Of a stretch of DNA of 64,000 nt, positions 7,157-59,223 are shown piece by piece; position 1 is the stretch's first letter, and each line of letters opens with the position of its first letter. The DNA lies in sequence record MK310184; one strand, written 5' to 3'. Origin of the DNA: Phage NC-G. Made by a program: the position numbers and the translations under genes. The notes beneath the pieces were generated by a model. That model worked only from the letters and a program-made list of their open reading frames with translations, had not been told where the DNA came from and made no database searches.

Positions 7157-7449
7157 TTTACCGTCCTTACAGTTTGTGTACTTCTATTATAAGCTACTTC
7201 ATCTAAAAGCTCATTTAAAGTTTTGTGATACGATATAATACGCTTATCTTTAATATCATATTCAGTAACATACATAAATCCACGCCGAACACATTGGATA
7301 AAGATATCTTCATCTTTGGCTTGGAAATATACAGGATTCAATCGAAGGAATTGTCTAAAGTTTCCATAATCATGGGATTTAGGGATTCCATCAGTAATAG
7401 TATGAACAACAAACATATTAACCTCGTGCAATCCATTCAACGGCTGCAT
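7153..7449 (-). CDS. Hypothetical protein (30.1 position)
   Basis: ORF whose stop overlaps the ligase start; true start may be the internal Met (MFVVH). Confidence 0.5.
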   Translation of the reverse strand: MQPLNGLHEVNMFVVHTITDGIPKSHDYGNFRQFLRLNPVYFQAKDEDIFIQCVRRGFMYVTEYDIKDKRIISYHKTLNELLDEVAYNRSTQTVRTVK

Positions 7450-8056
7450 TATTACGAAGGGATTCGATTGCTGCGATATCGTCCCATGAATTAACCTTTA
7501 CGGCTAAATTAGGTTTAAAGTCGCGTTCACCACGGGCTAACCAATAAACTTGGATATCCATGAGAATATTAGATGCTGCATCACAGTGATGAGCCAAATC
7601 ATCAACATAAAACTTAATGCGTTTGCCGTATGTATTTTTAGCTCTTATGAACAGGTCTTCTTTTGATTCTGAATGACCACACATCAGAATCTCCTTGAAT
7701 GCGCCAGGGAACAAAGCATTCAAATTGAATTGTCTATTCAGCAGGGCATCAATTGAGTCGCCTAGCGCAGTCACGGCTACAAAATCGAAGTCTTTTTTGA
7801 GCTTGTTGATGTGTTTTAATGCGTCCATGTAAGGGGACAGATAACGAATAAAATCCGACTGATTATATTTCTCAATTAAACGTGCGCCTAATTCGTCGTC
7901 ACAATTAAACAGTTCACCTGGAGATAAGAAACGTTCGTCCTGAATCATATTCAAAATATGTTCTAAAGGCAAATTATATTTCTGTGCGAAATAAGGCAAG
8001 CCGGACTGCCAACTTAAACATACTCCATCGATATCTGTTAAGATAACTGGTTTCAT
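7418..8056 (-). CDS. HAD-superfamily hydrolase-like protein
   Basis: N-terminal ILTDIDGV (HAD motif I, DxDGx) and a later YVDD motif. Confidence 0.5.
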   Translation of the reverse strand: MKPVILTDIDGVCLSWQSGLPYFAQKYNLPLEHILNMIQDERFLSPGELFNCDDELGARLIEKYNQSDFIRYLSPYMDALKHINKLKKDFDFVAVTALGDSIDALLNRQFNLNALFPGAFKEILMCGHSESKEDLFIRAKNTYGKRIKFYVDDLAHHCDAASNILMDIQVYWLARGERDFKPNLAVKVNSWDDIAAIESLRNNAAVEWIARG

Positions 8057-52094: not shown

Positions 52095-53912
52095 TTACGA
52101 CATCCAAGCCTTACGGAGTTGAGGGTCGTTTCCAAGGAGCATTTCGAACTGTTCTTTCCAATCTTCAGGCAATTGAACCACATCAAATTTAGGGTCTTGA
52201 ATCATTCGACGGTATTCGGCCTTCTCAAGAGAACCGAGCCCTTTAATATAACGAATAGAATGTTTAGGTAGAGAGTCCTTAGCTTTGGTATAACTAGGAA
52301 CGTCATAAAACCATTCTTGTTCTTTACCAATCTGAGCAATAATTACAGGAGTCTTACAGAAACGAATTCGTCCTTGTTCGAATAATTCAGGCCATTGGCT
52401 AAAGAAGGCTAATAACGAAGGATAAATCGAACCAGTACCATCCACATCGGCGTCAGTCATGATAGCAATATTACGATAGTTGGTTTTATCTGCAGGTTCA
52501 CCAATAACCAGTCCAGTGATTGCACAGATATCAAACAATTCTTTGTTCTTCATGATATCGGCAGCAGTCATACCCCAGGTATTCATAACCTTTCCGCGTA
52601 ACGGATAACCGCCTTGGAGGTCTTTATTACGAACTTCAATGAAAGGACCCATTGCAGAATCACCTTCCGTAAGGAACAAAGTCGTATCAGCATCTTTGCC
52701 ATACATATTGGCTTTAATATGCTTATGGACCTTGGCTTTCAAAGCTTTCTTAGCAGCTTTTGTTTCGGCGGCTTTTTCAGCAGCGAGTTTACGTGCTAAA
52801 GCTGCTTCGACAATAGGCATAATCAACCCATCAACTTTAAGAATAGCCGTTGCAATTTTCTTAGCATCAATTTGGATATGGTTACGAATCTCACCAAACG
52901 GAGAGGTTAATCGCTCTTTAGTCTGTGAATCAAAACGCATATTGCTCATATCACGAATGAACATTACCATCGTAAGGCATTCTTTAACACGAGCCTTAGT
53001 TACTTCGATTCCTTTATATTTCTTTTTAATACCGGGTAGAAGGTGCTCACAGATATCATCGAACACACATTCAACGTGGTGGCCGCCATTCTTAGTATGG
53101 ATATTGTTTACATACGTCAGTTGACGGAACCCGTCAGGAGAAGGAGTAAATGCCATCGAAACATTATCAGTTTCCTGGATTACAAAGTCTTCACCAAATT
53201 GCTTAGCATACTTTTTAAAGTTGCCATCTACTTTTTTACCATTAAAAGTAAATTGGATATCTGGATAAATTACAGCCAGTGTTTGAAGACGGTCTAGTGT
53301 AATATCCAGATAAATTTGAGACAGACTATTTTCTTCGAAATGGTTAAAGTCTGGGGTGAATATAACCGAAGTACCCTTACCTTTAGATTTCTTAGTAGAC
53401 CAACCTTTGTTTTCCATTCCATTGGAACAGTTAACAGTAATCTCATTCTCGCCATCAGAGGTGATGCCTGTGAACAAAACAGAGAAGATATTAGTTAAAC
53501 TACTACCAACACCGTTCATACCACCTGTCTTACGCTCAGCGTCATCTCCAAAGTTACCACCGGCCTTTGGAATAGTCCATGCAGCTACAGGACCTGGAAT
53601 CTGTTCACCGTTTTGGTCAGTAACCATTGCTTGAGGAATACCACGCCCATTATCAGAAACCGAAACCTGGTTATTCTTAATTTGAACATCAATTTTATTT
53701 GCGAATTTAAAATTGGTACGAATAGCTTCATCGACAGAGTTATCAATGATTTCGTCAATTAATTTAACCAGTCCAGGAACATAGTTCACCTGGGTAAAAT
53801 TACCAAACAGGAATCGACCGTGAGCTTCATTAGCACTGGAGCCAATATACATCCCACTACGTTTTTTGATATGTTCAATGTCGGACAGTACTTTAATTTC
53901 ATTCTTAATCAT
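52095..53912 (-). CDS. 39: DNA topoisomerase II large subunit (GyrB-like), single unsplit ORF
   Basis: 605 aa containing the ATPase domain and a C-terminal Toprim region (TEGDSA, TDADVDG) in one frame. Confidence 0.9.
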   Translation of the reverse strand: MIKNEIKVLSDIEHIKKRSGMYIGSSANEAHGRFLFGNFTQVNYVPGLVKLIDEIIDNSVDEAIRTNFKFANKIDVQIKNNQVSVSDNGRGIPQAMVTDQNGEQIPGPVAAWTIPKAGGNFGDDAERKTGGMNGVGSSLTNIFSVLFTGITSDGENEITVNCSNGMENKGWSTKKSKGKGTSVIFTPDFNHFEENSLSQIYLDITLDRLQTLAVIYPDIQFTFNGKKVDGNFKKYAKQFGEDFVIQETDNVSMAFTPSPDGFRQLTYVNNIHTKNGGHHVECVFDDICEHLLPGIKKKYKGIEVTKARVKECLTMVMFIRDMSNMRFDSQTKERLTSPFGEIRNHIQIDAKKIATAILKVDGLIMPIVEAALARKLAAEKAAETKAAKKALKAKVHKHIKANMYGKDADTTLFLTEGDSAMGPFIEVRNKDLQGGYPLRGKVMNTWGMTAADIMKNKELFDICAITGLVIGEPADKTNYRNIAIMTDADVDGTGSIYPSLLAFFSQWPELFEQGRIRFCKTPVIIAQIGKEQEWFYDVPSYTKAKDSLPKHSIRYIKGLGSLEKAEYRRMIQDPKFDVVQLPEDWKEQFEMLLGNDPQLRKAWMS

Positions 53913-53978: not shown

Positions 53979-54239
53979 TTAATCAAATCGAATAGTAGAC
54001 TTTTTAAAGAATAATCCAGAACAAACCGTTCCTTCAACCCTTTTACCTGTCGGCCCTACAGCAATAAAGCCTGTACGTTGGAAATCATCTTCAGAACAAC
54101 CGAATAGGTTATATCCTGTGATTTGGATTTGTTCGTAGCCATTTGCATCTAATACACGGGTAGCATTATCGGCATCAGTACAACCAACCAACGAAACTGC
54201 TAGTACAAGAGCTGCAATAGAACGATTAACATATTTCAT
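53979..54239 (-). CDS. Small lipoprotein (86 aa)
   Basis: Signal peptide ending in the lipobox LVGC. Confidence 0.55.
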   Translation of the reverse strand: MKYVNRSIAALVLAVSLVGCTDADNATRVLDANGYEQIQITGYNLFGCSEDDFQRTGFIAVGPTGKRVEGTVCSGLFFKKSTIRFD

Positions 54240-54245
54240 AATTTC

Positions 54246-54422
54246 TCACTTAGTTAGTAGGTCGTAAAACCCGCCGTTAACATGTTTAGGAGCCGAGACT
54301 AACCGAACAGCCAGCCGATGGCAATCAGGGCAAATATCATTATCTCTTTCAGAGATTTTCTTGATTTTTTCGTATTCTTTTGCACAGTCTTCAGATTGGC
54401 ATTTGTAATCATAAAGTGGCAT
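54246..54422 (-). CDS. FmdB-type zinc-ribbon protein (58 aa), absent from the ORF track
   Basis: Hand translation gives MPLYDYKCQSEDCAKEYEKIKKISERDNDICPDCHRLAVRLVSAPKHVNGGFYDLLTK; CxxC...CPxC with the MP.Y.Y.C start typical of that family. Confidence 0.55.
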   Translation of the reverse strand: MPLYDYKCQSEDCAKEYEKIKKISERDNDICPDCHRLAVRLVSAPKHVNGGFYDLLTK

Positions 54423-54428
54423 CTTCTA

Positions 54429-54800
54429 TTATTCCTTAAAGTGAGCTTTCAGCATCTGGTAAACTGTCCAGGCTTCAGAATTATTAGAGATAGTGATTTT
54501 AGTCAAAGGGAAATCACTCGGTTCCGATGGGCCCACGTCTTCGCATTCATCTTCAGTATCGTCATCTTTTTCTTCTTCAAAGAAACGACGCTCATCTTTC
54601 TTTATGAATAGGCTCGTAAATTCACCAGTTGATAATTCCATTTTATACACATCACCATCTTCAATTCTGACTGGTCTAAATCCCTCGCCATTGATTATAG
54701 TATTGGCTATATTATCATTATCTGTACATAGCAAACGGAATTTGCTTTCAGCATCATTATCTTTAAAATAATACCACTTATCAGTTTCAAATTTGGTCAT
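54429..54800 (-). CDS. Hypothetical protein (about 123 aa, start MTKFETDKWYY)
   Basis: ORF; the track start overlaps the upstream gene. Confidence 0.45.
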   Translation of the reverse strand: MTKFETDKWYYFKDNDAESKFRLLCTDNDNIANTIINGEGFRPVRIEDGDVYKMELSTGEFTSLFIKKDERRFFEEEKDDDTEDECEDVGPSEPSDFPLTKITISNNSEAWTVYQMLKAHFKE

Positions 54801-55011
54801 TATAAGTTTCCTTCCAGAAGTCGGTGCCTTCAGCAGTGATTTCACGGAACACTGCATAGATAGGATTTTTATCACCTTGATTTTTGTATACATAAACCGA
54901 CGATAAATGAGAAAATGTATCAGAATGTTCCTTTTGAACCACGATTAAATCAGGGTTGAACAGAACGTCTTCAAATTCTTCACGGGTCGAGTTCACGGTA
55001 ACTTTAGCCAT
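54787..55011 (-). CDS. Hypothetical protein (74 aa)
   Basis: ORF preceded by a promoter cassette. Confidence 0.5.
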   Translation of the reverse strand: MAKVTVNSTREEFEDVLFNPDLIVVQKEHSDTFSHLSSVYVYKNQGDKNPIYAVFREITAEGTDFWKETYNDQI

Positions 55012-55084: not shown

Positions 55085-55588
55085 TTATGCACGATGAATA
55101 TTGGCATACTCGACGATAAAGCTTTCAGGAACCACCTTAAAGGTTCCAAGGAACACGATGTTATAGAGCTTAACGCCTTCTTCAACCCACTGGTCAGTGA
55201 TGTACCCAGACATGCTAGTGGTTTCGTAAGTACCAAACTCTCCATCAATATATTCAAACGGTTTATGTGAAACGAAAAAGACGCCTTGACCTAATTTCCA
55301 TTTGAAATCAACACCAACATGAGACTGATCGATGGTTTCAACTTCTTCAACTACAGGAGCGACACATCCAGTAAATTCAGTTGATTCCAGGAATTTAGAA
55401 CGCACGTAGCCGAATTGTGTTTCCGTCTGGCCATTTTTAGGAATAATACGTACTTTTACTTCAGCGTTTTCAGGTCTGACACCTTCTTTAAGTTGAATAC
55501 TAACAACTTCAACTAAACGGCCTGCAGCTTTTGAACGAGATTGTTTGGATACGCGAACGATACCACCGATATCGGAAATAGTAATCAT
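55085..55588 (-). CDS. Hypothetical protein (167 aa; motB position) sharing a C-terminal module with its neighbour
   Basis: C-terminal ITDQWVEEGVKLYNIVFLGTFKVVPESFIV is paralogous to the end of the 248 aa neighbour. Confidence 0.5.
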   Translation of the reverse strand: MITISDIGGIVRVSKQSRSKAAGRLVEVVSIQLKEGVRPENAEVKVRIIPKNGQTETQFGYVRSKFLESTEFTGCVAPVVEEVETIDQSHVGVDFKWKLGQGVFFVSHKPFEYIDGEFGTYETTSMSGYITDQWVEEGVKLYNIVFLGTFKVVPESFIVEYANIHRA

Positions 55589-55661
55589 AATTTTTCTCTC
55601 TTGGTTAAAGGTTTATTCTCCATGAGAGCCATTATAACATGGCTCTCGATAAAGTAAACTA

Positions 55662-56408
55662 TTAGTTCAAAACATTCACAACTGCACTACGAGGTACTAC
55701 ACTAAAATCACCTGCATGGACTACGTTCAGGAGCTCGACACCATCTTCAATCCATTGGTCTGTTACCCACCCACAGATAGGATTATCAAAAGGACGACGG
55801 ACGCTTACTGGCTTACACAACAAATCGGACGGGTCTTGTTCTTCAACTTCTTGGAACAGGATTAACTCTGCTTCATAAACCAGGTTTTTCTCTACTTTGT
55901 TATTATCTAACCGGCGGCCGTGGATGACGTAAGATTTGGCAAACCAGTCACTTTTGGTAAATTCTTCAACAATAAATTCGCCTTCGCCAAAAACATCAGT
56001 CAGAGTTTTATGGCCGGAAATCAAGGCCTTAGTTTTAATTTCAGGTTCAACCAGTTTGTAGGTTTTGCCGATTTCAATAGTGGTAGTCATAGTAGGTTCC
56101 TTAATTTCCAGTGGTTTAACAGGGCATACATAAGTGCTTACAACATCAAAATCGATAAGCTGCTTTGGAGCTAAACGAATAAAGGCAGCCATTTCTCGTT
56201 GCGACAATCGAATAGTATGGATCCCGGGTCCGCCGCATTCTTGAACTGTTACAGATTTAATATTATCAAGCTCATCAGGTCCAATAGAAAGAATACGAAA
56301 TTCATTGCCTTTAGTCATCTTTTTAAGGATATCATAAGCTTGGTTGTAGAGCTTAAGTTCAGCGTACGGGGTAACGATGTATTTGGCATTCAGATCAAAA
56401 GTATTCAT
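55662..56408 (-). CDS. Hypothetical protein (248 aa) with the same C-terminal module
   Basis: C-terminal VTDQWIEDGVELLNVVHAGDFSVVPRSAVV. Confidence 0.5.
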   Translation of the reverse strand: MNTFDLNAKYIVTPYAELKLYNQAYDILKKMTKGNEFRILSIGPDELDNIKSVTVQECGGPGIHTIRLSQREMAAFIRLAPKQLIDFDVVSTYVCPVKPLEIKEPTMTTTIEIGKTYKLVEPEIKTKALISGHKTLTDVFGEGEFIVEEFTKSDWFAKSYVIHGRRLDNNKVEKNLVYEAELILFQEVEEQDPSDLLCKPVSVRRPFDNPICGWVTDQWIEDGVELLNVVHAGDFSVVPRSAVVNVLN

Positions 56409-56914
56409 AATTGTCTCATTTCAATAAAATCTACGAGTTCAGCATGGGATTTGCGGAACATTACTTGGTGGTCACCAATGACAACCTCATCTTCAGGTAT
56501 TTCGTAAACAGCAAGATAGAATCCTTTAGAAGATAATTCTTCTCGCTCTTCATGACTGAACCAGCGCATCATATCATACTCACTGGCAAAAGCAAAATGA
56601 TAGAGGTGAACAAACCAACTAGGTATATAGTTATCTACACCATTATAATCAGGGCGACCCCACTTAGTATTAATTGCTCTATTAGAATTCGCAACCAACA
56701 ATTTATCTTGGGATGGTACCGGGATATTTTTAGTATTGCTATGATGGTGTCTAAAATCAGGTTTATTATAACCCGCTTCTAATAACCATCCTTCACTCCA
56801 CTCGTCGAATAATCCGCTATATGGTGTTAACTGACGACTCGCCTGTCTGGTGATTGCGATAGCGTTTCTGTCATCTAAAACACTGAATGATGATTCAACT
56901 CTATAAATTTTCAT
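56405..56914 (-). CDS. Hypothetical protein (169 aa)
   Basis: ORF preceded by a promoter cassette. Confidence 0.5.
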   Translation of the reverse strand: MKIYRVESSFSVLDDRNAIAITRQASRQLTPYSGLFDEWSEGWLLEAGYNKPDFRHHHSNTKNIPVPSQDKLLVANSNRAINTKWGRPDYNGVDNYIPSWFVHLYHFAFASEYDMMRWFSHEEREELSSKGFYLAVYEIPEDEVVIGDHQVMFRKSHAELVDFIEMRQL

Positions 56915-56973: not shown

Positions 56974-57648
56974 TTATCGATTTTTTACACTCAAAGGGTC
57001 TGGATTCTCAGGGACATCTTCCAGGCTTAAAGCGTATCGTTGGGCGTATTTAAGCATCAAGATATCCTTAGCACAGTCATGAATAGAGTCATGAGCTACA
57101 AAGCCACTCAATGTTCCATTAGGCAGCGGACACATGCTTAACCCACGAGTCAACGAGTACGCTTCAATAGCAGTACGGATATCGCGTTGGTTCCAGAATT
57201 TAACAGGTTCTAACTTAGAGGTATCGATTTCATTCTCAGGAACACCTTCAGAACGGTATGCATCACGGATTAGGTCGACCAAGATTGGAAAATCAAAGGA
57301 CATTCCACGACACCACATCTGGGATTTCCATTGGTCTACTTCGTTTTTGCGACAGTATTCTAAGAAGTTACCAAGCCCAATAGAAGTAGACACATCAATT
57401 TCAGACGGGGCCAGGTTTTTACGTGCTTCAGGCCCTTGTTCTTTCCACCATTGGAGAGTGCTTTTAGAGAACAGACGTTTATCACGTTGAGAAGCCAAAT
57501 CGAATTTAATACGAAGGCCTCGTTGAGTAAGCTCTTCAAACGATTCTACTACCTCTGGATTAGGGTCATAAGCAATTACGGCGAGGTCAATAACCGCCGC
57601 ATTTTGGGTAGCGGCAAAGGTTTCGAAGTCAATAATTATATCTTTCAT
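56974..57648 (-). CDS. dexA: Exonuclease A (DEDDh 3'-5' exonuclease)
   Basis: N-terminal IIDFETF (DxE exonuclease motif I); 224 aa; T4 dexA position. Confidence 0.8.
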   Translation of the reverse strand: MKDIIIDFETFAATQNAAVIDLAVIAYDPNPEVVESFEELTQRGLRIKFDLASQRDKRLFSKSTLQWWKEQGPEARKNLAPSEIDVSTSIGLGNFLEYCRKNEVDQWKSQMWCRGMSFDFPILVDLIRDAYRSEGVPENEIDTSKLEPVKFWNQRDIRTAIEAYSLTRGLSMCPLPNGTLSGFVAHDSIHDCAKDILMLKYAQRYALSLEDVPENPDPLSVKNR

Positions 57649-57935
57649 TTAACGTACCTCATAAGGTCTCGGATTTGGCCAATAGTGTAGTCTTCAATAT
57701 AAACTGAAGAGATATTGTCGTCCATCAGATTTTGCACTGCAATAAAATCACTTTCAATCTCTTTAAGTGAATGCAAGACCTTATGAGCCTTGCCACGAAT
57801 ATTTGTATCGTCTTGGTTGACCTTAATAATATATTCTGTTTCAAATTTCAACTTATAAAACTGGTCTTTAGTTACTTTAATCATATTTTCCTCAAACGTA
57901 GTAGGCGTCAGTACGAGCACGAGTAATACTAACAT
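57645..57935 (-). CDS. Hypothetical protein (96 aa)
   Basis: ORF. Confidence 0.45.
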   Translation of the reverse strand: MLVLLVLVLTPTTFEENMIKVTKDQFYKLKFETEYIIKVNQDDTNIRGKAHKVLHSLKEIESDFIAVQNLMDDNISSVYIEDYTIGQIRDLMRYVK

Positions 57936-59223
57936 AAGCCAGCTGTGAAGCTAAATTCACATCAGCCATATGCATGCATGGAGTATAGATAAAACTGTTC
58001 TGGACTGTAAGTCCTTGGGATTTATGAACAGTGCTCACAGGAAGAGCTCGAACCTTAGTAAACATTCGCTTGGCTTTCCAGAAATCAGCCCACTTAGGTT
58101 TCTTACCGGTTCCACGCATAGCCTTATACTCAGTAGCAACCTTAGCCAAGAAATAATGGAACTTCTCAACTGAAGCCTCATCGATAACCTTTAAATGCTC
58201 TACATAGTACTCGTCGTCTTCATCAACAGATTCTACTTGTAGGTCCCAGTAGTTAATCATTTGTCGAGTGCCTACATCCTTAGCAGACAAGAACAATGAG
58301 GTGTGGTTCACATCTAGAATACGAACCATTTGACCGTTATTAAAAATGGTTTCAGAGAATTTCTTACCATCGTATTCAAGTTCCTTCATAAAAGGCTCTT
58401 GCATCACTAGGATTTCACCCTTAATATAAGGCGCATCGGTTTCATAAAGCTTTTTACGAATAATGCTATTCAGCTTTTCAACCGATTTATTTGTATAAGC
58501 AAACATCCTATTCTCAAACAAGTCATCCGCGTCTTTTACAATGGAAAAATAATTCATCATAAAATCTTTTAAAGCAGTTTGAGATTTAAAACCGTGGACA
58601 CCATGTCCTTCGAATACACAATCTCTAAACCAACCACCATTACGGATTTCAGTAGCAACCTCAATGATAGGAGCATTACTACGCATCACTTCAGTCAGAT
58701 GTAGCTGTTTAATTTTAGGATGAGTAAAGAACGGAGATAACTGCGGACTTCCATCACTTCCGGGTTCTACCGGTTGTAGCTGAGCTCTGTCGCCAATCCC
58801 TAATACAGTGCACCATGGTGGCACGGAGGATTCAATAATCTTAAACAGCTTACCGTCAATCATCGAGCCTTCATCAACAACTAACACATTGCATTTGCTC
58901 AAGTCAGGAGCTTCGCGTTGTTCGAAGATATCCTGGTCTTCATATGTAGTAGGGTTAATTTTTAGAATTCTATGGATTGTTGATGCTTCTTGACCTGCGA
59001 GTTTCGACAACACCTTTTTGGCCGCATGAGTAGGTGCAGTCAAAATAACTCCGAGTTCACCGTTCTTGACTAAGTGGTCAAGGATAAATTTAGTAAGGGT
59101 TGTTTTACCTGTACCGGCTGGGCCGTTCAATGTAATCCATTCACCCTTACGTCGTTTAATAGCTTCAATGATTTCTTTAAAGGCCGTCCTCTGGCCGATG
59201 TTCAAGTCTTCAAATGTAATCAT
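57892..59223 (-). CDS. dda: Dda DNA helicase (SF1B)
   Basis: NGPAGTGKTTLTKFI, ILTAPTHAAKK and VDEGSMID match T4 Dda. Confidence 0.92.
   Translation of the reverse strand: MITFEDLNIGQRTAFKEIIEAIKRRKGEWITLNGPAGTGKTTLTKFILDHLVKNGELGVILTAPTHAAKKVLSKLAGQEASTIHRILKINPTTYEDQDIFEQREAPDLSKCNVLVVDEGSMIDGKLFKIIESSVPPWCTVLGIGDRAQLQPVEPGSDGSPQLSPFFTHPKIKQLHLTEVMRSNAPIIEVATEIRNGGWFRDCVFEGHGVHGFKSQTALKDFMMNYFSIVKDADDLFENRMFAYTNKSVEKLNSIIRKKLYETDAPYIKGEILVMQEPFMKELEYDGKKFSETIFNNGQMVRILDVNHTSLFLSAKDVGTRQMINYWDLQVESVDEDDEYYVEHLKVIDEASVEKFHYFLAKVATEYKAMRGTGKKPKWADFWKAKRMFTKVRALPVSTVHKSQGLTVQNSFIYTPCMHMADVNLASQLAYVSITRARTDAYYV

What the first reader, a model, noticed from the sequence alone, without database searches (positions are those of the whole stretch)
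55085..56408. Two adjacent early proteins share a C-terminal module of about 40 residues
The 167-aa and 248-aa proteins have unrelated N-terminal parts but end in clearly homologous segments (ITDQWVEEGVKLYNIVFLGTFKVVPESFIV versus VTDQWIEDGVELLNVVHAGDFSVVPRSAVV). This looks like a shared interaction domain, perhaps for a common host target or for each other, fused to different effector parts.
Basis: seen in the sequence. Interest (0 to 1): 0.45.

Follow-up and report, generated by a model that had tools for sequence, protein, structure and literature searches.

The report
MotB and MotB.1 share C-terminal domain
The two neighbouring proteins are the known T4-phage early proteins MotB and MotB.1, and their common tail is a real, strongly conserved small beta-barrel domain whose sharing was published in 2021, so the finding is correct but not new.

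Summary
The 167-aa and 248-aa proteins share a C-terminal segment: 19/40 identical, BLASTP E=1e-11, Smith-Waterman z=16 against shuffles, profile-profile probability 99.4%.

They are MotB and MotB.1 of a T4-like phage. Both proteins are identical to those of Phage NC-G, and the gene order matches T4 (dda-dexA-motB.2-motB.1-motB-cef-goF-39).

The shared C-terminal domain (CTD), joined to different N-terminal domains, was published by the Hinton laboratory (Viruses 2021;13:84). Pfam PF17613 hits both proteins. The finding is therefore already known.

What I add:
- Homology covers a whole domain of about 50-65 aa.
- AlphaFold2 models give strand order b1-b2-b3-b4-short helix-b5. This fits an SH3/Tudor/KOW-like small barrel better than the published OB-fold.
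- The domain is neutral to acidic. MotB's positive charge lies in its KOW-like N-terminal domain.
- The domain is always C-terminal and was found only in enterobacterial T4-like phages. It combines with KOW-like or LSm-like N-terminal parts.
- Some phages carry a single copy, so pairing with a paralogue is not obligatory.

Side finding: the T4 reference genome alone has an extra G that truncates MotB.1 inside this domain.

The domain's function is unknown. My best guess is that it recognises a ligand or partner common to both proteins.

The parts
55085..55588 (-). motB gene (167 aa), the T4 MotB orthologue. It is identical to QBP35622.1 of Phage NC-G.
   Evidence: Pfam PF17613 E=1.6e-63 and phrog_1671 E=1.7e-69. 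It lies between motB.1 and cef, as in T4 and JS10. 100 of 167 aligned positions are identical to T4 MotB. Exact match to the NC-G protein.
55385..55588 (-). MotB N-terminal domain (residues 1-68). It is a basic, KOW/SH3-like small barrel.
   Evidence: AF2 strands 10-13, 25-32, 43-48 and 58-63. Net charge +5, pI 10.1; the family mean is +5.5. The published HHpred assignment is KOW (PMC7827196).
55088..55315 (-). MotB C-terminal domain (residues 92-167).
   Evidence: AF2 pLDDT 79-91. Strands 102-115, 119-136, 139-146, 149-154, a short helix at 155-157, then strand 158-161.
55100..55219 (-). Shared module in MotB (residues 124-163), corresponding to strands b2-b5 of the C-terminal barrel.
   Evidence: BLASTP, hhalign, module HMM 93 bits.
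55662..56408 (-). motB.1 gene (248 aa). It is identical to QBP35623.1 of Phage NC-G.
   Evidence: phrog_2333 E=2.2e-79. The gene in this position is annotated motB.1 in JS10 and T4. Cluster look-up.
55665..55820 (-). MotB.1 C-terminal domain (residues 197-248).
   Evidence: hhalign aligns 51 columns at probability 99.4%. AF2 strands 200-203, 211-221, 224-231, 234-239, a helix at 240-242, then strand 243-246, with pLDDT 66-76. The module is nearly invariant across MotB.1 homologues. Between the window and JS10, pN=0.00 against pS=0.49.
55839..56093 (-). MotB.1 LSm-like small-barrel domain (residues 106-190), related to the goF-like family.
56094..56162 (-). MotB.1 linker motif (residues 83-105, 'LIDFDVVSTYVCPVKPLEIKE').
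   Evidence: In the KOW-type hybrids P0236 and P0239 this motif lies directly next to 'DPTDLLC', the start of the CTD. The LSm-like domain therefore looks like an insertion into the linker.
56163..56408 (-). Extra N-terminal segment of this MotB.1 variant (residues 1-82).
   Evidence: It is absent from the 180-aa and 143-aa forms. tblastn finds it in only 9 phage records. No similarity to the LSm-like domain was detected. The AF2 confidence is low, pLDDT 34-59.
55631..55659 (-). Early-type promoter for motB in the 73-bp gap after motB.1: GTTTAC, 17 nt, TGtTATAAT.
   Evidence: Consensus scan hit with TG before the -10 element. Sequence read. GTTTAC and TATAAT are invariant in T4T, JS10 and dhaeg. 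Promoter function is inferred, not tested.
55624..55647 (-). 9-bp inverted repeat (GAGAGCCAT / ATGGCTCTC) that encloses the -10 element.
   Evidence: RNA fold of the gap gives -22.6 kcal/mol, z=-5.0. T4T has GGGACCA / TGGTCCC at the same place, so the pairing is kept through base changes on both arms.

Best explanation
Shown:
- The two genes are motB and motB.1 of a T4-like phage (Phage NC-G, Dhakavirus-like). They are adjacent paralogues in the early region between dexA and cef.
- They share one complete C-terminal domain of about 50-65 residues.
- Everything upstream of that domain differs. MotB has a basic KOW-like barrel and an acidic disordered linker. MotB.1 has an LSm-like barrel related to GoF and, in this phage, an extra N-terminal segment of about 80 residues.
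- The domain is under strong purifying selection and is always at the extreme C-terminus.
- It was found only in T4-like phages of enterobacteria and is recombined with different N-terminal domains.

Predicted:
- The domain folds as a five-stranded SH3/Tudor/KOW-like small beta-barrel: b1, a loop that is 13 residues longer in MotB, b2, a tight turn, b3, a tight turn, b4, a short helix, then b5.

Inferred (my probability about 0.4-0.5):
- The domain is a common recognition module. It binds the same conserved ligand or partner in both proteins, most plausibly a component of the host nucleoid or transcription machinery such as H-NS/StpA, with which MotB copurifies.
- The N-terminal barrels supply the differing nucleic-acid contacts: DNA for MotB's basic KOW-like domain, perhaps RNA for MotB.1's LSm-like domain.
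- The acidic and aromatic invariant residues (D-Q-W-x-E-[DE]-G) would form the binding surface.
For: Identity and synteny.

Homology of the domain.

Selection on the protein:
- For the MotB.1 module, window against JS10 gives pS 0.49 and pN 0.00. Window against T4T gives pS 0.59 and pN 0.09.
- Third-codon-position identity between the two paralogues is 32%.

Fold:
- Both AF2 models give the same order of strands, with a 3-residue helix between b4 and b5 and only 2-residue turns between b2/b3 and b3/b4.

Charge:
- The MotB N-terminal domain is +5 (pI 10.1). The module is -3 in MotB and -4 in MotB.1. MotB.1 as a whole is -9 (pI 5.1).
- In T4 MotB the N-terminal domain is +5 and the module 0.

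Distribution and shuffling:
- About 27 of the 34 clusters with E<=0.001 (the other seven matched in 4-7 short stretches, as repetitive sequence does), among 1.84 billion representatives, carry the module. All are 43-251 aa with the module at the C-terminus. N-terminal parts are KOW-type or LSm-type.
- tblastn finds it in 780 phage records at 1685 places, usually 2-3 per genome.
- A single KOW + MotB.1-type-CTD gene occupies the locus in Klebsiella phage Biddle_MM4.
- The LSm-like domain looks like an insertion into the linker.

Literature:
- MotB binds DNA non-specifically, copurifies with H-NS/StpA and improves burst size (PMC6070864, PMC7827196).
- The CTD shared with MotB.1 is described in PMC7827196.
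Against:
- MotB copurifies with H-NS only in the presence of DNA (PMC7827196), which may be indirect.
- SH3-like barrels such as Sso7d-type proteins and integrase C-terminal domains can bind DNA, and an invariant Trp could stack on bases. An acidic net charge does not exclude nucleic-acid binding.
- The published HHpred analysis assigns the MotB CTD to the OB-fold.
Confidence: 0.5

Rival explanations
1. The shared domain is itself the nucleic-acid-binding domain, as in the published view of an OB-fold-like, cold-shock-type CTD. MotB and MotB.1 would then both be DNA- or RNA-binding proteins through it, and the N-terminal domains would modulate that binding.
Confidence: 0.25
2. The shared domain is an oligomerisation interface, either self-association or MotB-MotB.1 hetero-association. 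This would give MotB the multivalency needed to compact or bridge DNA and would couple the two neighbouring gene products.
For: The genes are adjacent, and tblastn found the module at 1685 places in 780 phage records, usually two or three per genome. T4 MotB.1 and GoF run partly as dimers on non-reducing SDS gels (PMC12152347). All-beta C-terminal modules can pair by strand addition.
Against: Some phages carry only one module-bearing gene, so hetero-association cannot be the general role. AlphaFold3 gave no confident homomultimers for MotB.1. However, both that test and the dimer gel appear to have used the 119-aa truncated protein, which lacks most of the domain, so neither result bears on the domain. 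GoF, which lacks the domain, dimerises on the same gels.
Confidence: 0.15
3. The similarity reflects recent gene conversion or recombination between neighbouring genes, or chance or compositional similarity, rather than a conserved functional domain.
For: The genes lie 73 bp apart, and deletions and fusions do occur in this locus (P0249).
Against: DNA identity is 54%, and 32% at third codon positions. The same pair with the same divergence exists in T4 and in hundreds of genomes. Statistical support is z=16 and E=1e-11 to 1e-21.
Confidence: 0.01

Closest known systems
Phage T4 MotB (modifier of transcription B; Pfam PF17613; phrog_1671)
   Same: Same position between motB.1 and cef. Same two-domain layout: a KOW-like basic N-terminal domain, a linker, then the CTD. 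About 60% identical (100 of 167 positions). PF17613 scores 213.8 bits.
   Different: The window's MotB is acidic overall (pI 5.46), whereas T4 MotB has pI 9.23. The difference comes from an acidic linker and CTD; the N-terminal domain is equally basic. DNA binding and H-NS copurification are known only for the T4 protein.
Phage T4 MotB.1 (phrog_2333; 'Category 2' of Viruses 2021;13:84)
   Same: [quoted passage not shown] It has an LSm-like domain followed by the same CTD. The CTD is 85-90% identical to that of T4T MotB.1.
   Different: This one is 248 aa, against 143 aa in re-sequenced T4 and 180 aa in most relatives. It has an extra N-terminal segment of about 80 aa found in only 9 phage records. 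Its LSm-like domain is of the 180-aa type and has diverged strongly from T4's. The T4 reference annotation (119 aa) is truncated inside the domain.
[quoted passage not shown]
   Different: That family is defined by the N-terminal barrel, not by the module in question. GoF and Frd.2 lack the MotB-type CTD; only two copies were found in the window.
SH3-like small beta-barrels (Tudor, chromo, BAH, KOW, PWWP)
   Different: No sequence relationship is detectable: Pfam finds only PF17613, and no PDB sequence matches. An aromatic cage or peptide-binding groove was not examined. I could not tell which domain of each model the hits align to.

Membership tests
Pfam PF17613 (motB, modifier of transcription) | Whole-protein score above the gathering cut-off of 25 bits. 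| tested here: met
   MotB scores 213.8 bits over profile positions 2-159. MotB.1 scores 34.1 bits over profile positions 118-153 only. The isolated CTDs score 96 and 37.7 bits.
T4 MotB orthologue | Conserved position (dexA - motB.2 - motB.1 - motB - cef - goF - 39) and a KOW-like N-terminal domain plus CTD architecture. | tested here: met
   Synteny with JS10, dhaeg and T4. AF2 gives a two-domain model with a disordered linker at 71-88.
T4 MotB orthologue | Tight non-specific DNA binding, copurification with H-NS/StpA, and toxicity in E. coli. | not testable with these tools
   Known only for the T4 protein (PMC6070864, PMC7827196). The window's protein has pI 5.46 rather than 9.23, so equal behaviour should not be assumed.
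MotB.1 (phrog_2333) | Full-length profile match and a position immediately upstream of motB. | tested here: met
   phrog_2333 E=2.2e-79 over residues 78-248. Its start overlaps the motB.2 stop codon (ATGA). JS10 and T4 annotate the gene in this position as motB.1.
LSm-like fold family (GoF/MotB.1/Frd.2) | A bent five-stranded antiparallel sheet in the domain preceding the CTD. | tested here: met
OB-fold, cold-shock DNA-binding type (published assignment of the MotB CTD) | A five-stranded barrel with a helix or long connection between b3 and b4. | tested here: not met
SH3-like small beta-barrel (Tudor/KOW/chromo) | About 50-65 residues with order b1 - RT-like loop - b2 - b3 - b4 - short (3-10) helix - b5. 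| tested here: met
   The secondary-structure order is met in both models.
SH3-like small beta-barrel (Tudor/KOW/chromo) | Structural superposition of the CTD itself on members of the fold. | tested here: inconclusive

The most novel reading that the evidence does not exclude
The MotB-type C-terminal barrel is a dedicated docking domain for one conserved host factor, for example H-NS/StpA or another nucleoid or transcription protein. T4-like phages would attach it to interchangeable nucleic-acid-binding barrels (KOW-like, or one or two LSm-like). MotB, MotB.1 and the hybrids would then form a modular family of nucleoid or gene-expression remodelling factors. Because the published MotB.1 experiments appear to have used the 119-aa truncated product of the T4 reference sequence, MotB.1's real activity would still be untested.
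Probability: 0.2. Interest if true: 0.5.

Novelty: already known. Interest (0 to 1): 0.2.

Why it matters
MotB is an abundant early T4 protein, about 40,000 copies per cell. It binds DNA, alters H-NS silencing and doubles burst size. MotB.1 has no known function.

Knowing that their common part is a complete, acidic, SH3-like C-terminal barrel tells experimenters which constructs to make: isolated N-terminal and C-terminal domains, and point mutants in the D-Q-W-x-E-[DE]-G motif.

The side observation has practical weight. The T4 reference sequence truncates MotB.1 inside this very domain, whereas every other T4 record examined does not. Published negative results for MotB.1 may therefore describe a truncated protein.

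For the genome scan itself the finding is ordinary. It is a correctly spotted, already described paralogous domain.

Tried and rejected
- PDB sequence searches with MotB, MotB.1 and the module profile found nothing significant.
- NCBIfam found no family for MotB, MotB.1 or MotB.2.
- Pfam at E<=10 on eight divergent CTDs found only PF17613.
- hhalign of the CTD against MotB's KOW-like domain and against the LSm-like domain showed no relationship (probability 0.1%). The CTD is therefore not a detectable internal duplicate of the other barrels.
- In that run an apparent 'CTD vs LSm' hit (E=6e-9) was an artefact. My column range included the second LSm-like repeat of the VR25-type proteins. I redid the comparison with clean columns.
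- hhalign of the extra N-terminal segment (residues 1-82) against the LSm-like domain showed no similarity, although the predicted helix-and-strand order looks alike.
- A search for a third copy of the module in the window found none.
- Foldseek against viral models (BFVD) returned MotB and MotB.1 relatives only as whole-protein alignments with rmsd 10-20 Å. This was not informative at domain level.
- I could not obtain model coordinates or run a third structure prediction. Domain-level superposition and multimer prediction were therefore not done.

Full report
**1. What is at the coordinates**

The window is part of a T4-like phage genome. The region 52-59 kb is read on the minus strand and has the following genes:

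| Gene | Coordinates | Product |
|---|---|---|
| dda helicase | 57892-59223 | |
| small ORF | 57645-57935 | |
| dexA | 56974-57648 | |
| motB.2 | 56405-56914 | 169 aa |
| the 248-aa ORF | 55662-56408 | |
| the 167-aa ORF | 55085-55588 | |
| cef | 54787-55011 | |
| goF-like ORF | 54429-54893 | |
| 39.2 (zinc ribbon) | 54246-54422 | |
| 39.1 | 53979-54239 | |
| topoisomerase gp39 | 52095-53912 | |

- Megablast places the region closest to the Dhakavirus phage JS10 and to VR5, at about 90% identity.
- The annotated records of JS10, dhaeg and T4 show the same gene order. They name the two ORFs motB (167 aa here) and motB.1 (248 aa here).
- Both proteins are identical to QBP35622.1 and QBP35623.1 of Phage NC-G.
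- motB.1 starts in an ATGA overlap with the stop codon of motB.2.
- The 73-bp gap before motB holds GTTTAC, 17 nt, then TGtTATAAT. These elements are invariant in T4T, JS10 and dhaeg. From my own knowledge, this matches the form of T4 early promoters.

**2. Is the similarity real?**

Yes.
- BLASTP aligns MotB 124-163 with MotB.1 209-248: 19/40 identical, no gaps, E=1e-11.
- The Smith-Waterman score is 16 standard deviations above 2000 shuffles.
- An HMM made from MotB homologues alone finds the MotB.1 C-terminus at E=5e-13, and nothing else in the six-frame translation.
- Pfam PF17613 passes its gathering cut-off on both proteins.
- With clean columns, profile-profile alignment extends the homology to 51 columns, MotB.1 197-247 against MotB 99-162. 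MotB has a 13-residue insertion. Probability is 99.4%, E=1.8e-21.

The N-terminal parts are unrelated by sequence.

At the DNA level the modules are 54% identical, and 32% at third codon positions. The duplication is therefore old.

The domain is held by selection on the protein:

| Module compared | Pair | pS | pN |
|---|---|---|---|
| MotB.1 | window vs JS10 | 0.49 | 0.00 |
| MotB.1 | window vs T4T | 0.59 | 0.09 |

**3. It is already described**

- They reported that about 100 phage homologues fall into four categories by N-terminal domain, and that one gene may have arisen by duplication of the other (Viruses 2021;13:84, PMC7827196).
- The same paper assigns MotB a KOW-like N-terminal domain and an OB-fold-like CTD by HHpred.
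- A 2025 paper shows that the N-terminal domain of MotB.1 belongs with GoF and Frd.2 to an LSm-like/SH3-like fold family (PMC12152347).
- Known MotB properties are early and abundant expression, tight non-specific DNA binding, copurification with H-NS/StpA in the presence of DNA, toxicity in E. coli and a twofold effect on burst size (PMC6070864, PMC7827196).
- MotB.1 is non-essential and has no known function.

**4. Anatomy from structure prediction**

*MotB* (mean pLDDT 75):
- a four-strand N-terminal barrel, residues 10-63;
- a disordered linker, residues 71-88;
- a confident CTD (pLDDT 79-91) with strands 102-115, 119-136, 139-146 and 149-154, a 3-residue helix at 155-157, and strand 158-161.

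*MotB.1* (mean pLDDT 64):
- a low-confidence N-terminal segment, residues 1-80;
- a confident LSm-like domain, residues 110-190 (pLDDT about 85);
- a CTD (pLDDT 66-76) with strands 200-203, 211-221, 224-231 and 234-239, a helix at 240-242, and strand 243-246.

The two CTDs have the same order of elements. The alignment puts strand on strand. MotB's extra 13 residues lengthen the b1-b2 hairpin.

Tight turns between b2/b3 and b3/b4, and a short helix between b4 and b5, are the signature of SH3-like small barrels. That signature is from my own knowledge of the fold. A canonical OB-fold instead has its helix between b3 and b4.

There is a caveat. Each model contains more than one small barrel, and the output does not say which one aligned. 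I could not excise domains.

**5. Charge**

| Segment | Net charge / pI |
|---|---|
| MotB N-terminal domain (window) | +5, pI 10.1 (family mean +5.5) |
| MotB linker (window) | -5 |
| Module in MotB (window) | -3 (family mean -2.8) |
| Module in MotB.1 (window) | -4 (family mean -4.0) |
| Whole MotB.1 | pI 4.6-5.1 in the window, JS10 and T4T |
| T4 MotB N-terminal domain | +5 |
| T4 MotB module | 0 |
| Whole MotB | pI 9.23 in T4, 5.46 here |

The difference in whole-protein pI between T4 and this phage comes from the linker and CTD.

On electrostatic grounds the KOW-like N-terminal domain is the more likely non-specific DNA-binding surface. It carries the invariant V-S-x-x-S-x-S-K-x-x-G motif. 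The shared domain is more likely to recognise something else.

Residues invariant across both families are D, Q, W, E and G (DQWxE[DE]G), then L, N, V, G and V.

**6. Distribution and domain shuffling**

- An exhaustive HMM search of 1.84 billion representative proteins with the module profile found 34 hits with E<=0.001. About 27 are genuine. The other seven (P0250-P0255 and P0258) matched in 4-7 short stretches each; P0250, the only one of them fetched, is a plain tandem repeat.
- All genuine hits are 43-251 aa with the module at the extreme C-terminus.
- Classifying them with HMMs of the window's domains gives these architectures:
  - KOW-type N-terminal domain + MotB-type CTD;
  - KOW-type N-terminal domain + MotB.1-type CTD (P0233, P0236, P0239, P0241-P0243, P0246, P0248);
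  - one LSm-like domain + CTD;
  - two tandem LSm-like domains + CTD (VR25/UPEC01 type; the second repeat matches the first at hhalign E=7e-11).
- tblastn finds the module in 780 of 50,697 phage records, at 1685 places, usually two or three per genome. Hosts are Escherichia, Shigella, Klebsiella, Yersinia, Salmonella, Enterobacter and Citrobacter.
- The most distant members are also from T4-like phages of enterobacteria, such as Yersinia phage MHG19 and Enterobacter phage Entb_43.
- Klebsiella phage Biddle_MM4 has a single 126-aa gene (KOW + MotB.1-type CTD) between dexA and cef. No second module is present.
- In the KOW-type hybrids the linker motif 'VDTDVASMYLTPxLPL' is directly followed by 'DPTDLLC', the start of the CTD. 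In MotB.1 the LSm-like domain lies between these two motifs.
- MotB.1 therefore looks like a MotB-like ancestor that lost the KOW domain and acquired an LSm-like cassette in its linker. The cassette is related to the neighbouring goF family.

**7. How it most likely works**

- Shown: a paralogous, mobile, strongly constrained C-terminal domain.
- Predicted: an SH3-like barrel.
- Inferred: a common recognition module, with a protein or other ligand as target, that gives MotB and MotB.1 a shared address. The N-terminal barrels would provide different nucleic-acid contacts.

I put about 0.4-0.5 on this reading. The rivals get 0.25 for the domain being the nucleic-acid-binding element, as published, and 0.15 for an oligomerisation role.

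Obligatory MotB-MotB.1 pairing is unlikely because single-copy genomes exist.

The dimer bands and the negative AlphaFold3 multimer results reported for T4 MotB.1 do not bear on the domain, for the reason given in section 8.

**8. Side finding: the T4 reference motB.1 is truncated inside the domain**

- In NC_000866/AF158101 the annotated MotB.1 (119 aa) ends '...GGWVTDQWI-GRWR*'. The rest of the domain (EDGVELLNVVHAGEYSVVPRSAVVAILN) continues in another frame as a 29-aa ORF.
- The cause is one extra G: GGATTGGAAGATGG in the reference against GGATTGAAGATGG elsewhere.
- A 73-nt query across the site matches only the two copies of the reference record at 100%.
- Thirteen other records each match over 72 nt with one gap. 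These are T4, T4T, RB55 and RB59 records, including HM137666, MT984581, KJ477684-6 and OZ209023.
- T4T and MT984581 annotate a 143-aa MotB.1 with the intact domain. It matches T4 MotB at E=9e-12.
- The 119-aa product has a calculated mass of 13.80 kDa. The 2025 paper gives 13.8 kDa for its MotB.1, and its constructs were designed from NC_000866.4.
- The 29-aa 'Category 3' peptide noted in RB69 in the 2021 paper is likely the same kind of split.

**9. Verdict**

The feature is already known: named genes, a Pfam family and a published description of the shared CTD. Interest for the scan is low. The useful residue is the revised fold and charge picture, the catalogue of architectures and the reference-sequence frameshift.

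Noticed in passing
L003:2219-2651 (T4 NC_000866 positions about 7218-7650); compare window 55665-55790: The T4 reference genome (AF158101/NC_000866) has one extra G in motB.1. It cuts the protein to 119 aa inside the shared domain, and the rest of the domain reads in another frame as a 29-aa ORF. Thirteen other T4, T4T, RB55 and RB59 records lack the G, and T4T and MT984581 annotate an intact 143-aa protein. The 13.8-kDa MotB.1 studied in PMC12152347 has the mass of the truncated product.
   Followed up: yes
window 56163-56408 (MotB.1 residues 1-82): This phage's MotB.1 carries an extra N-terminal segment of about 80 aa, inserted between 'TP' and 'AP-KQLIDFDV'. tblastn finds it in only 9 phage records (VR5, ESCO10, MX01, IME341, ABTNLsp5, IME540). 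No homology was detected elsewhere, and the AF2 confidence is low. Its predicted order of helices and strands resembles the LSm-like domain.
   Followed up: partly
window 54429-54893 (goF-like ORF) and 55839-56093 (MotB.1 residues 106-190): A second module is shared within the same gene cluster. The middle domain of MotB.1 hits phrog_622, the family of the neighbouring goF-like protein (E=4.3e-6). This agrees with the published GoF/MotB.1/Frd.2 LSm-like family. The 154-aa ORF overlaps cef, and its real start is probably an internal ATG (the profile match begins at residue 32; JS10's goF is 123 aa).
   Followed up: partly
window 55624-55647, minus strand: A 9-bp inverted repeat (GAGAGCCAT-GTTATA-ATGGCTCTC) encloses the -10 element of the motB promoter, directly after the motB.1 stop codon. 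Folded as RNA, the 73-nt gap gives -22.6 kcal/mol (z=-5). T4T has GGGACCA/TGGTCCC at the same place, so pairing is kept through changes on both arms. Its role is unknown; candidates are stabilising or ending the upstream transcript, or modulating the promoter.
   Followed up: partly
P0097, P0100, P0101, P0105, P0106, P0109 (VR25/UPEC01-type MotB.1, about 251 aa): These MotB.1 variants have two tandem LSm-like domains before the CTD. hhalign of the second repeat against the first gives E=7e-11.
   Followed up: yes
P0249 (43 aa, metagenomic): A 43-aa ORF joins the first 15 or so residues of MotB.2 (MKIYRVESSFSILDY) to the last 28 residues of the MotB.1 domain. This implies a deletion spanning motB.2-motB.1 in some phage.
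   Followed up: no
L006:5740-6120 (Klebsiella phage vB_KpnM_Biddle_MM4): A single 126-aa gene with a KOW-type N-terminal domain and a MotB.1-type CTD occupies the dexA-cef interval. There is no motB.1 or motB.2, and the 12-kb locus holds only one copy of the module.
   Followed up: yes
window 55085-55588 compared with T4 motB (L004:898-1386): The overall charge of MotB differs strongly between phages: pI 5.46 here, 6.9 in JS10 and 9.23 in T4. The basic N-terminal domain is conserved. The published argument that MotB is 'highly basic' does not hold for the whole family.
   Followed up: partly
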